Source: a virus (lineage: Duplodnaviria > Caudoviricetes). Taken from it: a DNA stretch of 64,000 bases. This document shows, one piece after another, positions 14,568-19,850 of this stretch. Numbering within the stretch: position 1 is the first letter of the stretch; every line of letters begins with the position of its first letter. Both the position numbers and the translations under genes were made by a program. The stretch is taken from the IMG/VR virus record IMGVR_UViG_3300008110_007313. The stretch is one strand, 5' to 3'. Below the pieces are notes generated by a model. The model searched no databases. It was not told the DNA's origin and saw only the letters and a list, made by a program, of their open reading frames with translations.

Positions 14568-17500
14568 TTATCCCATTACTGGAACTACTTCAACACCAGC
14601 TTGCATATTTTGCGGATTTCTACGTAACCAATCCATGGCCACACGGTTAGCGTCACCTTGGTTGTTGCCCACACCTGAGAATCGATAGATCACACGACCT
14701 TCAGGGCCAACTATTTGCCACTCGCCTGTGAATGTTTGTTGACCTTGTCCAGGACGAGTCAGTGTCTGTGGTACATTGTATGGTGATATGTCTGGTCCAA
14801 TGTCAATGATGCCACCTTGTGCTGCGTCTGTACCACCAACACCTTCGCGAGTTCTTACTTCAAAGTCAGCTTCGTTGTGACCGTTTTGTCTCAACCAAGT
14901 TCTTGATTGTGACTCTGCTTCAATAGGATTACTGCTTGGTGGGTTGTAATAAACTTGGTTGTTGTCTCGGTTAGCAACTTCCCAAGGTCCAGGACCACTT
15001 GGTGTTAGTGTGTCTATGTCTGGCGAAGTGTTAGCTGTAGCACGTTGACGTTGCAAGTCTAGTGTACTTCCTGGAATAGGTTCAGCTGGCTCAATCTCAC
15101 GCACTTCAATATCACTTCGCATGTTGGGACGTTCAGCACGTTGTTGTTCTATCCATTGTTCTGCGGCAGCACGAGTTGGGAATCTATAGAATGGTGGTGT
15201 TTCACTTCTCGAATATGACCCAGGTTGATTAGCAAAGCGATTAGAATTGATTATCCAGATACCCCAGTTGCCTTGATCTGTTGATGCAGCAGGCTGTTGT
15301 GCTTGGGGTTGACCAAGGCGTTGGGTAGGATCTTGTGCATACATCCACTCACCGCCGGGGTTGGCCGCGATCCATTGGCGTAATACACTAAATGCATCAT
15401 TGCTGTCTGCGGCTGCATAGCGATATACCGGTGTCTCTCGGTCTTGTCGATCAATAATAATCCACCTGCCGTTGGGATTGCTGGGACGACCGTTTAGTGT
15501 TGGACCTGCTGCCTCAGGTGTTTGTGGTTCCTGATATGGACGTAGGGGAGTAGCAGTCATGTCTCGGGCATTGCGCCAGTCTGGATATTCTTGTTTGCCT
15601 TTTTCAATGGCTTCTTCTTTGCTGCTAGCAACAACTTCAACGCTGGCAAAATATCCAGGTCGTGCCACGTTCCACCACATCTTGCCTGTGACTTTGCCCT
15701 TTTCAACATTGCGAGCCAACTGCTTTTCACGCACTTGTCGAATTAGTGCTGCTTTGTCCAGCTCACCTGCCGAGTAGTTGGCAAACAGTTGCAGCACATC
15801 TGGCCCGCCTTTTGTTTGACTGCCTTCTAGTAGCTTGTATAGCTTTTTCAAATATTCTTGACGATAGGCTTTGGGATCAATAGCAGCTGACAACGCCACA
15901 GTGAATCGCAACAAGGTGTTTTCAATCTTGTCAAAGTTAGCATCCAACCAGTCGCCACCTGGACTACGGAATTCAATGTAGCCAGTCTTGGTGTTAATAC
16001 TAGTGTATTTGTCTGTAGTACCTGAGTGGATGGCCTTGGTAGCAATATCTTCCATGTGCTCACGCATTTTGTCCATGACCTGCGGAGCAATATCAGGATT
16101 TCTTTGCAACATGGTTTTGATCTTGCCAATAGCTGATTTAGCATAGGTGTTGCCTGAACGCCCAAACAATTCCAGCACATATTCGTCGCCCATGAGCAAG
16201 GCCAGTTTGACATAGTCCAGCTTGGCAAGAGTGTAGTTGGGCACACTGATGTTGATGTGCAGGCCAGTTGAATCGTTGGTGTAGCAACCTTCTCGCTTGG
16301 CCCAGGCTTTGACCTTGTTTAGGTCAGAGATCATTTCATCTATGGGCATGGGTGGGCTTACAAATTCCAGACCGCCATCACCAGGATTGTCGCCTTCTAG
16401 GCTACCATCAGGCTCTACCACATAGTGTCCGGCTTCACGTCGGCCACCATGATACTGTCTGCTGGCATTTACAGGCTTACCAATAGAGTTACTAAAATCA
16501 TCAGCCACTTGATCTATATCCATTTCACCATCTTGGCCATCATTGATGTCGTAGTAGTGAGGCCAACTAATATCAAAGTTGCTTTGAATGTCACTCATAG
16601 TTTGATACTTGTCATCCAAGAAACTGCGCTCGTCGTATTCTTCGTCTTGTTCGTCTGAAAACTCTTCAAATGCTTGATCGTGTATGCGGCCACGATCTTC
16701 AAATGCAGTATCGGCGAATTCAGTCTCCATTTCGTTCAGTCTAGCACTCAGCAATTCTGTGAATTCTTCCGACTCCGGTGGCAGATCTGGGTTGGCATCC
16801 ATAATTTCATCACGAGCCTGTGCCATGGCTTCGTCGCGATCAAACAGGTCGTTGTTAGCAACATAGTCCCGCACATAGTCTGCACCATCGCGTTCCCAAG
16901 CTTCAGCTATTTGTTCTTGTTTCCATTCCTGATATTCCCCGTCAAGTTCTTCAATCAGTCGGTCAGCGTCCCGACGGCTGTTATAGTCCCCGTCATAGAA
17001 AAAGTCTCGCACATCACCAAAACTACGACTGCGTTGATCCTGATCCCAGTCTGGTTCGTATTCGGGTTCTAGATCTTGTTCGATGTTGGGCACAATCATT
17101 TCAAATTCCATACCAGCTATGGCACCAGTCTTGGCAGCTTCAGCTCGCAGGTTCTTGCCAGTCATTTTGATTTCGCCTAGGAACTCATCTTCCAGCAAGG
17201 CAAATTCTTGACGCAAGCTTTCTACTAGTTCATCTTCGTCTGTATTTTGGCGAATTTTTGTCAGCTCAAATTCTACTTTGTCATCATGGTCAAAACTTCT
17301 AGCTTGATATCCCCAAGTTCCGGCATAACGCTGAACCAGTTTGTTGTATAACTTGGATCTGCTGCCTGTAGGATCGTCTTCCTTTACCGCAGAGAAACTT
17401 ATGTTTGCTGGCTGTTCCTGTTTTAAAAACTGTTGAATAGCGGCCAACACTGTGGCAAATATGCGTTGTGCATCACCTTCGCCTGTGACTTCTTGGCTGT

Positions 17501-19850: not shown

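What the first reader, a model, noticed from the sequence alone, without database searches (positions are those of the whole stretch)
14568..19850. 1760-aa polyvalent protein combining a nucleotidyltransferase, metallopeptidase, GNAT-like fold and amidoligase
Seen, in order: a polB-type NTase (GS...DIDLH, ~19140-19850), an HELAH zincin motif (18693-18707), a signal-like hydrophobic stretch right after EIDEG, a Gln-rich linker, two small unknown domains, a GNAT-like domain (~17270-17650), an amidoligase (~15750-17120) and C-terminal repeats. Junctions are acidic and Glu-ended (GGES, FLSE, IDEG, IAEA, LREG, VSET, LVES). Established: phage polyvalent proteins carry several conflict-related enzymes, often with a zincin peptidase proposed to release them, and T4 Alt is a packaged, processed modifier of host proteins. 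Inference: an injected polyprotein that covalently modifies host targets by nucleotidylation, acylation and peptide ligation.
Basis: partly seen in the sequence, partly recalled or inferred. Interest (0 to 1): 0.8.

Follow-up and report, generated by a model that had tools for sequence, protein, structure and literature searches.

The report
Modular cargo polyprotein of T4-like jumbo phages
This 1760-residue phage protein strings together several intact enzymes separated by T4-type head-protease cutting sites, some of which sit directly in front of hidden secretion signals, so it is probably packed into the virus head, cut into pieces and delivered into the next host cell.

Summary
In order it has:
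- a Pol-beta nucleotidyltransferase;
- a minimal HExxH zincin;
- an internal signal-peptide-like segment plus a Gln-rich helical module;
- two small unknown modules;
- a GNAT-like DUF6934 domain;
- a GS-fold amidoligase with a helical acidic insert;
- five beta-beta-alpha-beta repeats.

Catalytic residues are invariant across the family. The family is large (>780 full-length relatives; 3266 zincin cluster representatives). It occurs on uncultured freshwater jumbo-phage contigs whose complete relatives carry T4-type gp21, gp22 and gp23 homologues.

New here:
- Optional modules are cassettes flanked on both sides by [LIV]-x-E, the T4 gp21 cleavage motif.
- Internal Sec, lipoprotein and Tat-like signals all follow such a site directly.
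- The gene heads an array of genes with T4 IP-like capsid-targeting leaders.
- It has a TAAATA late-promoter box.
- A stand-alone amidoligase homologue (Atu_ph07 gp196) was detected in virions by mass spectrometry.

Best reading: a capsid-packaged polyprotein cut by the prohead protease and delivered to the host. Substrates are unknown, and packaging and cleavage of this protein are inferred, not shown. First readers of this scan noted relatives on other genomes.

The parts
19858..19863 (-). TAAATA box 7 nt upstream of the ATG (T4 late-promoter core)
   Evidence: Read directly. Of 28 copies in the window, 16 lie within 40 nt upstream of ORF starts, against 0.6 expected.
14568..19850 (-). Whole ORF, 1760 aa plus stop codon
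19137..19850 (-). Module 1, aa 1-238: Pol-beta nucleotidyltransferase with a helical C-terminal half. N-terminus MNITEL; ends at LQE238.
   Evidence: PF01909 in 37 of 37 members; G65, S66, D77, D79 and E120 invariant. Stand-alone homologues of about 240 aa end 2-6 residues after LS[LI]xE. T4 Alt starts MELITEL.
18918..19136 (-). Spacer, aa 239-311: poly-Lys, an aromatic/Gly-rich stretch, GGGDGGGES, and one DGVSPxTxxFLSE unit ending at E311
   Evidence: Alignment. The unit is repeated up to three times in relatives. pLDDT below 50.
18543..18917 (-). Module 2, aa 312-436: minimal gluzincin with HELAH at aa 382-386 (nt 18693-18707) and E407
   Evidence: Invariant residues; pLDDT 80-92; zincin fold matches at Z 7.2-8.7. 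Weak Pfam hits to DUF6782, eCIS_core and M78.
18474..18542 (-). aa 437-459: internal signal-peptide-like segment directly after IDE436. It has R441, an Ala-rich core and AQA|Q460.
   Evidence: Q at +1 fits the Bacteroidetes Q-rule (PMC5837995).
18177..18473 (-). aa 460-558: Gln-rich helical module ending at IAE558. Together with the signal it forms one optional cassette.
   Evidence: Present only in a subset of relatives; helices at pLDDT 70-80; no stand-alone homologue found.
18006..18176 (-). aa 559-615: universal conserved segment (SGYIP...DPRF.MAL..DV.PG...ANKM) ending at LRE615. Not predicted to be globular.
   Evidence: Invariant columns; pLDDT below 50. Found only in this family, always after the zincin.
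17649..18005 (-). aa 616-734: small optional alpha/beta module of unknown fold ending at VSE734
   Evidence: No match in PDB profiles, the Atlas or NCBIfam.
17220..17648 (-). aa 735-877: DUF6934, GNAT-like fold, optional cassette bounded by VSE734 and LVE877
   Evidence: PF22028 and two PHROG families; invariant RNNSQEVTGEGDA; GNAT fold matches. In L016 the same module sits in a separate gene that starts MRAHEF.
17172..17219 (-). aa 878-893: SLRQEFALLEDEFLGE, an internal leader that resembles the capsid-targeting leaders. It has two [LIV]xE sites: E887 (83%) and E893 (100% conserved).
   Evidence: Compare the Atu_ph07 gp196 N-terminus, MRWQDISSKKLTE|LKM.
15726..17171 (-). aa 894-1375: GS-fold amidoligase with a helical acidic insert (about aa 945-1092)
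   Evidence: PF12224. E915, E917, E1146, D1148, E1162, H1198, E1293 and R1295 invariant. pLDDT about 90. GS matches at Z 8.6-10.4.
14571..15725 (-). aa 1376-1760: five beta-beta-alpha-beta repeats joined by Pro/Gln-rich linkers. Repeat 3 ends EVRE1585.
   Evidence: One to five repeats per relative; no fold match.

Best explanation
The gene encodes a late-expressed, modular cargo polyprotein of a T4-like jumbo phage.

Proposed mechanism, all inferred:
1. The chain is built into the prohead.
2. The gp21-type prohead protease cuts it after [LIV]-x-E at the module boundaries: E238, E311, E436, E558, E615, E734, E877/887/893, and perhaps E5 and E1585.
3. The pieces travel with the DNA into the next host cell.

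The expected pieces are:
- a nucleotidyltransferase;
- a small zincin;
- a GNAT-like acyltransferase;
- an ATP-dependent GS-type amidoligase that keeps its five C-terminal repeats.
These would act in the cytoplasm on unknown acceptors.

The cut after E436 would give the Gln-rich module a new N-terminus that reads as a Sec signal peptide, so that piece would be exported by the host. Relatives use the same design to send muralytic (LysM plus GH19), M48 peptidase and lipoprotein modules out of the cytoplasm.

Shown: the domain identities, the intact catalytic motifs, the cassette structure, the position of sites and signals, the genomic context, and the T4-type head module in relatives.
Inferred: packaging, cleavage, delivery, export and every substrate.
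For: (1) Enzyme modules are intact across the family and their folds are confirmed.

(2) Optional modules are cassettes bounded on both sides by [LIV]xE: IDE|G...IAE|A and NVSE|...LVE|S. Conserved sites fall in linkers with pLDDT below 50.

(3) Across the wider family, 32 of 46 distinct internal hydrophobic segments have [LIVMF]xE within 14 residues upstream, against 15.7% of control windows. Those 32 include nearly all the signal-like segments; I did not count the signal-like subset separately. The segments are SPI-type (AxA|Q), lipobox and Tat-like. They precede typical extracytoplasmic modules: LysM plus GH19, and M48. ATP- and probably acyl-CoA-dependent modules lie further downstream in the same chain, so export makes sense only after excision.

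(4) Complete relatives encode Peptidase_S77 (gp21) and a gp23-type capsid protein. The scaffold-like ORF next to the capsid gene has 22-23 [LIV]xE sites in about 365 aa. The capsid protein has four such sites in its first 42 residues.

(5) In 27 related loci, 75 of 181 downstream same-strand ORFs start M[RK]xx[ED][FIL], against 13 of 210 upstream. Over all ORFs of these loci, 88 distinct ones carry the leader, and in 48 of them the first [LIVMF]xE ends at residue 9. This matches T4 IPII and IPIII, MKTYQEFIAE|A. The window neighbour starts MRAQEFVIE|ARV.

(6) Modules move between the polyprotein and leader-bearing single genes.

(7) The N-terminus MNITEL resembles T4 Alt's MELITEL.

(8) A TAAATA late-type box lies upstream of the ATG.

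(9) Atu_ph07 gp196 shares 33% identity over 270 aa with the amidoligase (E 1e-34). It was found in virions with 14 peptides and 30% coverage (PMC6102473 supplement).

(10) Two members of the wider family carry ART-PolyVal at 2e-59.

The T4 gp21 motif L/I-X-E and the capsid-targeting concept come from PMC9026906.
Against: No protein-level data exist for this protein or any full-length relative.

The window holds no head genes. The gp21, gp22 and gp23 evidence comes from relatives whose polyprotein is 44-52% identical to this one.

The N-terminus is not the canonical MRAxEF leader. It is shared with stand-alone NTases that sit in replication modules of cyanophages.

[LIV]xE is a short motif. Enrichment of all sites in low-pLDDT segments is only marginal (p = 0.09; conserved sites p = 0.035).

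The invariant zincin still needs a role and could be the processing enzyme.

No precedent was found for packaged phage proteins that carry secretion signals.

A chain of about 200 kDa is large for a T4-type head cargo.
Confidence: 0.5

Rival explanations
1. Self-processing polyvalent protein. The chain's own zincin cuts it at the module junctions, in the producing cell or after transfer, as proposed for MPTase-bearing polyvalent proteins. Packaging is not required. Released modules, including the exported ones, would act late in the same infection.
For: The zincin is universal in the core family and its catalytic residues are invariant. It lies directly upstream of most internal signals. Iyer et al. 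2017 propose autoproteolysis for MPTase domains (PMC5512222). A muralytic module behind an Ala/Gly-rich signal recalls signal-anchor-release endolysins, which act late.
Against: The same [LIV]xE motif ends the leaders of dozens of neighbouring small proteins that have no zincin. It also occurs at junctions in a relative without a zincin. The motif fills the scaffold-like protein and the N-terminus of the capsid protein in related phages, which points to the prohead protease. A homologous amidoligase is a virion protein.
Confidence: 0.2
2. Packaged and cut by the prohead protease, but the pieces serve the particle rather than acting on the host. They could be core or scaffold-like filler, DNA-condensing or ejection-channel components, or fragments expelled during maturation. 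On this reading the enzyme domains are secondary.
For: In T4 most core-protein fragments leave the head after cleavage (PMC9026906). The spacer units and the 57-residue conserved, non-globular segment look like disposable or interaction peptides.
Against: Catalytic residues of four enzyme folds are invariant over hundreds of relatives. Modules are swapped for other enzymes: deaminase, ART, GNAT, M48, GH19 and SLT. Secretion signals make no sense for pure head filler.
Confidence: 0.12
3. An unprocessed multi-domain cytoplasmic enzyme, for example part of a biosynthetic or nucleic-acid modification pathway. The Glu-ended junctions would be ordinary linker composition.
For: The window and its genome are rich in modification enzymes: radical SAM, NUDIX, a cytidylyltransferase-GNAT protein and, according to unchecked earlier notes, deazaguanine genes. 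Stand-alone NTase homologues lie in replication modules.
Against: Sec, lipoprotein and Tat-type signals lie in the middle of the chain, upstream of ATP-dependent modules. Optional modules have a cassette structure. Modules are exchanged with leader-bearing single genes. The gene sits in an array of IP-like genes.
Confidence: 0.08

Closest known systems
Polyvalent proteins of phages and conjugative elements (Iyer, Burroughs, Anand, de Souza and Aravind 2017, PMC5512222)
   Same: Many conflict-type enzyme domains in one chain, with a zincin MPTase as a constant element. Pol-beta NTase, GNAT and muralytic modules also occur. Wider family members carry the defining ART-PolyVal domain. The proposed logic is the same: delivery with the DNA and proteolytic release.
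   Different: This NTase-zincin-amidoligase architecture is not mentioned in that paper (no occurrence of 'amidoligase'). Junctions carry the T4 prohead-protease motif rather than relying on autoproteolysis alone. Internal secretion signals are not described there (no occurrence of 'signal peptide').
[quoted passage not shown]
   Same: The phage lineage has gp21, gp22 and gp23 homologues. Neighbouring genes start with near-copies of the T4 IP leader and end it with [LIV]xE. The N-terminus MNITEL is like Alt's MELITEL. Both are late-expressed, head-packaged, processed host-directed enzymes (PMC9026906).
   Different: T4 cargo proteins are single-function and lose only short terminal propeptides. 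Here one chain would be cut internally into six or more products. It is 2.6 times longer than Alt, and some products carry export signals.
Ejection and inner-body proteins of phiKZ, 201phi2-1 and SPN3US, cut by gp21-like proteases after S/A-x-E
   Same: Giant phages with many head-internal proteins cut after Glu at short motifs, with redundant sites in disposable regions (PMC9026906, PMC5694885).
   Different: A different phage lineage and a different site preference ([LIV]xE here). Those proteins are mostly non-enzymatic or RNA polymerase subunits, not strings of unrelated enzymes.
Agrobacterium phage Atu_ph07 gp196 (AUZ94978.1)
   Same: A stand-alone homologue of the amidoligase module, including an acidic insert and a leader ending LTE|LKM. 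It is encoded two genes from the T4-like portal gene (gp198) and was detected in purified virions.
   Different: A 500-aa single-module protein, without the NTase, zincin, GNAT or repeats.
Glutamine synthetase-fold carboxylate-amine ligases (GS, gamma-glutamyl-amine synthetases, GCL, PafA and Dop; Pfam Amidoligase_2)
   Same: Same fold, and the full set of GS-type acidic, His and Arg positions is conserved.
   Different: It has a helical acidic insert of about 150 residues and five C-terminal repeats. The substrate is unknown. It lacks the GS N-terminal beta-grasp domain.

Membership tests
Polyvalent proteins (Iyer et al. 2017) | Several unrelated conflict-type catalytic domains in one polypeptide of a phage or mobile element | tested here: met
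   NTase, zincin, GNAT-like and amidoligase in one ORF on a phage contig.
Polyvalent proteins (Iyer et al. 2017) | Zincin-like MPTase hub domain (HExxH helix plus a Glu-bearing helix) | tested here: met
   H382, E383, H386 and E407 are invariant and the zincin fold is matched. No hit to a Pfam polyvalent-MPTase model was seen; the hits were to DUF6782, eCIS_core and M78.
Polyvalent proteins (Iyer et al. 2017) | Domain network shared with recognised polyvalent proteins | tested here: met
   ART-PolyVal (PF18760, 2e-59) in 2 of 36 wider family members; also GNAT, SLT and extra NTases.
Polyvalent proteins (Iyer et al. 2017) | Transferred into the recipient cell with the DNA | not testable with these tools
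   Indirect evidence only: context, a late-type promoter box, and the virion-borne homologue Atu_ph07 gp196.
Pol-beta nucleotidyltransferase superfamily | hG[GS] motif, [DE]h[DE]h motif and a third carboxylate on the next strand | tested here: met
   SGS64-66, D77-I-D79 and D118-V-E120. G65, S66, D77, D79 and E120 are invariant. PF01909 in 37 of 37 members. No structure was predicted for this module.
GNAT acyltransferases | GNAT fold with a beta4-alpha3 pyrophosphate-binding loop (Q/R-x-x-G-x-G/A) | tested here: inconclusive
   Fold matches are moderate (Foldseek E about 3e-3; Z 7-8.6). An RNase E subdomain scores as high (Z 9.2). An invariant QEVTGEGDA loop sits at the right place but with one extra residue, and the N-terminal arm is shortened. 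The Pfam family is DUF6934, below its cut-off here (20.2 against 27 bits).
Amidoligase_2 / GS-fold carboxylate-amine ligases | Pfam model above its cut-off, GS fold, and conserved metal and nucleotide ligands | tested here: met
   25.2 bits against a cut-off of 22. GS matches at Z 8.6-10.4. E915, E917, E1146, E1162, H1198, E1293 and R1295 invariant; their equivalence to the GS ligands is my inference from order and spacing.
T4-type head-internal cargo (IP and Alt class) | N-terminal capsid-targeting leader ending in L/I-x-E | tested here: inconclusive
   The chain starts MNITE|L, which is Alt-like. E5 and L6 are invariant, and I-x-E is present in 68% of relatives. This is not the MRAxEF leader of its neighbours. 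An internal leader-like SLRQEFALLE precedes the amidoligase.
T4-type head-internal cargo (IP and Alt class) | A gp21-type prohead protease in the phage, with L/I-x-E sites in its known substrates | tested here: met
   Met in complete relatives only: PF03420 at 84-87 bits, gp23 at E about 1e-98, a scaffold-like ORF with 22-23 sites, and a capsid N-terminus with 4 sites. The window itself holds no head module.
T4-type head-internal cargo (IP and Alt class) | Physical presence in virions and processing at the sites | not testable with these tools
   Evidence exists only for the amidoligase homologue of Atu_ph07.

The most novel reading that the evidence does not exclude
Cleavage by the prohead protease unmasks Sec, lipoprotein or Tat signals inside a virion-packaged polyprotein. 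Proteins brought in by the infecting particle would then be re-exported by the new host's own secretion machinery to its periplasm or membranes. That would be a cleavage-activated route by which a phage seeds the host envelope with muralytic enzymes, peptidases and lipoproteins before any phage gene is expressed.
Probability: 0.3. Interest if true: 0.85.

Novelty: new variant of a known kind. Interest (0 to 1): 0.72.

Why it matters
This family would link two concepts so far treated separately: T4-style capsid targeting with gp21 processing, and the polyvalent proteins of mobile elements. If the reading holds, it shows three things:
- Jumbo phages can load a whole tool-kit of enzymes as one gene product and split it inside the head.
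- The tool-kit evolves by swapping cassettes between protease sites.
- Packaged proteins may be addressed to different host compartments through signals that become active only after cleavage.

It also gives a simple sequence grammar for finding phage-delivered effectors in metagenomes: a leader or [LIV]xE site, followed by a module, followed by the next site. Finally, it flags an abundant, uncharacterised NTase, zincin and amidoligase set as candidates for early host take-over or counter-defence.

Tried and rejected
- **PDB profile searches.** Searches with the NTase, zincin and unknown-module alignments gave nothing usable; the best was a putative NTase at E 0.42.
- **Megablast against isolated phages.** No match. 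Only single modules have cultured relatives.
- **Whole genome.** None is held for the window, and the head protease is not in the window.
- **ESM Atlas.** Only DUF6934 gave leads. The repeats and aa 559-734 gave none.
- **NCBIfam.** No hits.
- **Stand-alone homologues of the signal plus Gln-rich module.** None found.
- **Amidoligase in three related records that lack it in the polyprotein.** None found.
- **Atu_ph07 gp195 NTase.** It is not homologous to this NTase beyond the active-site motif.
- **Internal translation start as the way to expose the signal.** Rejected. Met439 is not conserved; relatives read GIIKN, GLIKN, GKISR and GWKDV.
- **Strict leader pattern.** My first pattern missed the internal SLRQEF sequence, whose spacing differs by one residue. 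I call it only 'resembling' a leader.
- **Site enrichment in low-confidence segments.** Weak on its own (p = 0.09). The cassette boundaries and the positions of the signals carry the argument.
- **Fold searches.** The five repeats got no credible match (about Z 5), and aa 559-734 were predicted too poorly to search.
- **Calls lost.** Two Pfam calls were lost to a size limit.
- **RNA runs.** No RNA run holds the gene.
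Full report
**Observation.** The window holds one uninterrupted minus-strand ORF, 14568-19850, of 1760 codons. Composition is even across the window, and no tRNA or other feature interrupts the ORF.

**NTase.** Residues 1-240 match phrog_36119 at 4e-47. Taken alone they reach the PF01909 cut-off (21.6 against 21 bits). All 37 aligned relatives hit that family, and G65, S66, D77, D79 and E120 are invariant.

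**Zincin.**
- Residues 312-436 fold at pLDDT 80-92 into helix, three strands, HExxH helix and Glu helix.
- They match zincins: YbeY 1oz9 at Z 8.7, Wss1 at 8.7, SPRTN at 8.4, IrrE/PprI at 7.4, and the minigluzincins at 7.2-7.4.
- H382, E383, H386 and E407 are invariant.
- Weak Pfam hits are all to metallopeptidase families: DUF6782 in 29 of 37 members, eCIS_core in 18, M78 in 10.

**GNAT-like module.**
- Residues 735-877 are Pfam DUF6934.
- The model has pLDDT 72-87. Foldseek hits are almost all GNAT acetyltransferases (E about 3e-3).
- VIA gives Z 7-8.6 for GNATs, although an RNase E subdomain scores 9.2.
- An invariant RNNSQEVTGEGDA loop lies where GNATs bind the CoA pyrophosphate.
- I call the fold GNAT-like. 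Catalysis is unproven.

**Amidoligase.**
- Residues 894-1375 pass PF12224 and fold at pLDDT about 90.
- The ten best VIA matches are all glutamine synthetase relatives (Z 8.6-10.4). GCL, Dop and PafA follow near Z 6.
- E915, E917, E1146, D1148, E1162, H1198, E1293 and R1295 are invariant.
- The acidic stretch is not a disordered linker. It is a confidently predicted helical insert.

**Repeats.** The C-terminus has five beta-beta-alpha-beta repeats. An iterated HMM detects four of them, and relatives have one to five.

**Unknown modules.** Two pieces stay unknown. Residues 559-615 are a universal, highly conserved segment with no confident fold. Residues 616-734 are a small optional alpha/beta module.

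**Family and host virus.**
- More than 780 full-length relatives exist, on contigs up to 364 kb.
- A profile of the zincin finds 3266 cluster representatives. In most of them the domain sits at about residues 250-420, behind an N-terminal NTase.
- No isolated phage has the whole protein. Stand-alone NTases occur in cyanophages, Maribacter phages and Lak phages, and a stand-alone amidoligase occurs in Agrobacterium phage Atu_ph07.
- Complete relatives (344 and 364 kb, with terminal repeats) encode a T4 gp21-type prohead protease (PF03420, 84-87 bits) and a gp23-type capsid protein (E about 1e-98).
- Next to these, a scaffold-like ORF carries 22-23 [LIV]xE triplets in about 365 residues. The capsid protein has four in its first 42 residues and then none until residue 387-389.
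- This is the substrate pattern of T4 gp21, which cuts after L/I-X-E (PMC9026906).
- The gene itself is found almost identically in metagenome runs from 16 studies: freshwater, lake, estuary and 'fungus' metagenomes.

**Cassette structure.**
- Mapping the modules on 120 relatives shows a fixed scaffold: NTase, spacer, zincin, the 57-residue segment, usually the amidoligase, and the repeats. Optional inserts sit within it.
- The inserts are bounded on both sides by [LIV]xE.
- Relatives without the signal plus Gln-rich module read HPEMF-DKSSVIE|SSGYIP. This protein reads HPELF-MRQEIDE|G...DIAE|ASGYIP.
- DUF6934 is inserted between NVSE| and LVE|S.
- The sites are conserved in 62-100% of relatives. 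Five of them lie in segments with pLDDT below 50.
- P0001 has only 23 such triplets. By a rough estimate, the chance that five independently defined boundaries each lie within seven residues of one is about 2e-4. That figure is my inference.
- Other relatives swap in DUF5661, cytidine deaminase, GNATs, an M48 peptidase, LysM plus GH19, SLT, extra NTases, a ParB-like domain and ART-PolyVal.

**Internal secretion signals.**
- Residues 437-459 (GVMSR, an Ala-rich core, AQA|Q) follow IDE436 directly.
- Across the wider family, 32 of 46 distinct internal hydrophobic segments have [LIVMF]xE within 14 residues upstream. The control rate is 15.7% of windows. Most exceptions are ordinary helices such as GNAT alpha3.
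- The signal-like segments are of three kinds: signal-peptidase-I type ending AxA|Q, lipoprotein type ending in a lipobox Cys, and one Tat-like (DRRGVLK, Pfam TAT_signal 20.4 bits, below its cut-off).
- Where the following module is recognisable, it is an envelope enzyme: LysM plus GH19 in L016 and an M48 peptidase in P0119.
- An ATP-dependent amidoligase lies further downstream in the same chains. A working signal therefore requires the module to be cut out on both sides. I take this as the strongest argument that the chain is a polyprotein.
- An internal start codon is not the explanation, because Met439 is not conserved.
- Eleven of twelve SPI-type variants have Gln at +1, as do three N-terminal signals elsewhere in the window. 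This fits the Bacteroidetes Q-rule (PMC5837995) and hints at a Bacteroidota host.

**Context.**
- Synteny is conserved: a ClpA-like ATPase, a cytidylyltransferase-type protein, a phrog_1574 protein, the polyprotein, then an array of small genes.
- In 27 related loci, 75 of 181 distinct downstream same-strand ORFs begin M[RK]xx[ED][FIL], against 13 of 210 upstream.
- The consensus is MRA-x-EF-[LVI]-x-E|A. Counted over all ORFs of these loci, 88 distinct ones carry the leader, and in 48 of them the first [LIVMF]xE ends at residue 9.
- T4 IPIII and IPII begin MKTYQEFIAE|A. That ten-residue leader is the experimentally defined capsid-targeting sequence (PMC9026906).
- In the window, the next two genes start MRAQEFVIE|ARV and MRAKEFAEQ; the second is a NUDIX enzyme.
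- In L016, DUF6934 sits in a separate gene starting MRAHEF, directly after a shorter polyprotein.
- The amidoligase is preceded by SLRQEFALLEDEFLGE|, which resembles these leaders. Atu_ph07 gp196 starts MRWQDISSKKLTE|LKM.
- The chain's own start, MNITEL, matches T4 Alt's MELITEL. Alt loses short propeptides at both ends.
- A TAAATA box lies 7 nt before the ATG. Sixteen of the 28 copies in the window lie just upstream of ORFs, against 0.6 expected. TATAAATA is the T4 late-promoter consensus; that statement is from my own knowledge.

**Experimental anchor.** Atu_ph07 gp196 (AUZ94978.1, 500 aa) shares 33% identity over 270 residues with the amidoligase module (E 1e-34). It lies two genes from the T4-like portal gene, gp198. 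It was detected in purified virions with 14 unique peptides and 30.2% coverage (supplement of PMC6102473).

**Interpretation.**
- The most likely account is a late-made polyprotein that enters the prohead, is cut by the gp21-type protease at the cassette boundaries, and is delivered with the DNA. Some pieces would then be exported by the host.
- Self-processing by the zincin is the main rival. The same site motif serves many zincin-free neighbours and relatives and marks the head proteins. For that reason I weight the prohead protease higher and leave the zincin as an effector or helper.
- The acceptors of the NTase, the GNAT-like module and the amidoligase are unknown.

**Comparison with known systems.** The protein fits the polyvalent-protein concept of Iyer et al. 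(PMC5512222): a zincin hub, mixed enzymes, and ART-PolyVal in relatives. This architecture, the prohead-protease grammar and the internal signals are not described in that paper, and I found them in no other paper. First readers of this scan noted relatives on other genomes, with the same Glu-ended junctions and the TAAATA box. Those notes were leads that I tested here.

Noticed in passing
window 12877-14563, 4470-4682, 32082-33430, 38942-41971; L002, L019, L027 downstream of the polyprotein: There are arrays of genes whose products start MRA-x-EF-[LVI]-x-E, near-copies of the T4 IPII and IPIII capsid-targeting leader. They include a NUDIX hydrolase (13098-14024) and DUF6321 proteins. This looks like a hypervariable internal-protein locus.
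   Followed up: partly
window, e.g. 19858-19863, 24609-24614 region, 40335-40342, 61820 region: TAAATA boxes sit 10-13 nt, or 22-26 nt, before many start codons: 16 of 78 ORFs against 0.6 expected. At the short spacing the late transcripts would be leaderless or nearly so.
   Followed up: partly
window 5706-6833, 6769-8442, 29886-30101; internal signals of the family: Predicted signal-peptidase sites are followed by Gln (ATA|QT, SNS|QQ, LGS|QF, AQA|QD). This fits the Bacteroidetes Q-rule and suggests a Bacteroidota host.
   Followed up: partly
window 21929-24598 (-) and 20812-22026 (-): This is another multi-module protein of 889 aa: a cytidylyltransferase-like N-terminus plus a GNAT. Relatives have only the first 230-360 residues. 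Its 3' end overlaps a radical SAM ORF by about 100 nt.
   Followed up: no
window 626-3328 (-): A 900-aa protein with two LysM domains and no other recognised family. Relatives vary from 450 to 1150 aa.
   Followed up: no
L038, L039, L040 (head modules of related complete genomes): The scaffold-like ORF has 22-23 [LIV]xE triplets in about 365 aa. The gp23-type capsid protein has four within residues 1-42 (LLE7, LLE19, ILE34, LKE42). These look like a multi-site propeptide shorter than T4's 65 residues.
   Followed up: partly
L016 10001-14529: In this relative the polyprotein ends with deaminase, an internal signal (LEE|GIKSALATAALAGTMAMGAQA), LysM and GH19. The next gene carries a leader plus the DUF6934 module. 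The Ala/Gly-rich signal resembles signal-anchor-release endolysin signals.
   Followed up: partly
Atu_ph07 supplement table (PMC6102473): gp196 (58 kDa) was found mainly in the top gel slices, above the 66-kDa portal, and also in slice 13. This could reflect slow migration of an acidic protein plus a processed fragment.
   Followed up: no
stand-alone NTase homologues P0135-P0244: Stand-alone NTases of about 240 aa keep the LS[LI]xE motif only 2-6 residues before their C-terminus. Some start MRLTEL, MRSKDF or MKLVEF, like the targeting leaders, although cyanophage copies lie in replication modules.
   Followed up: no
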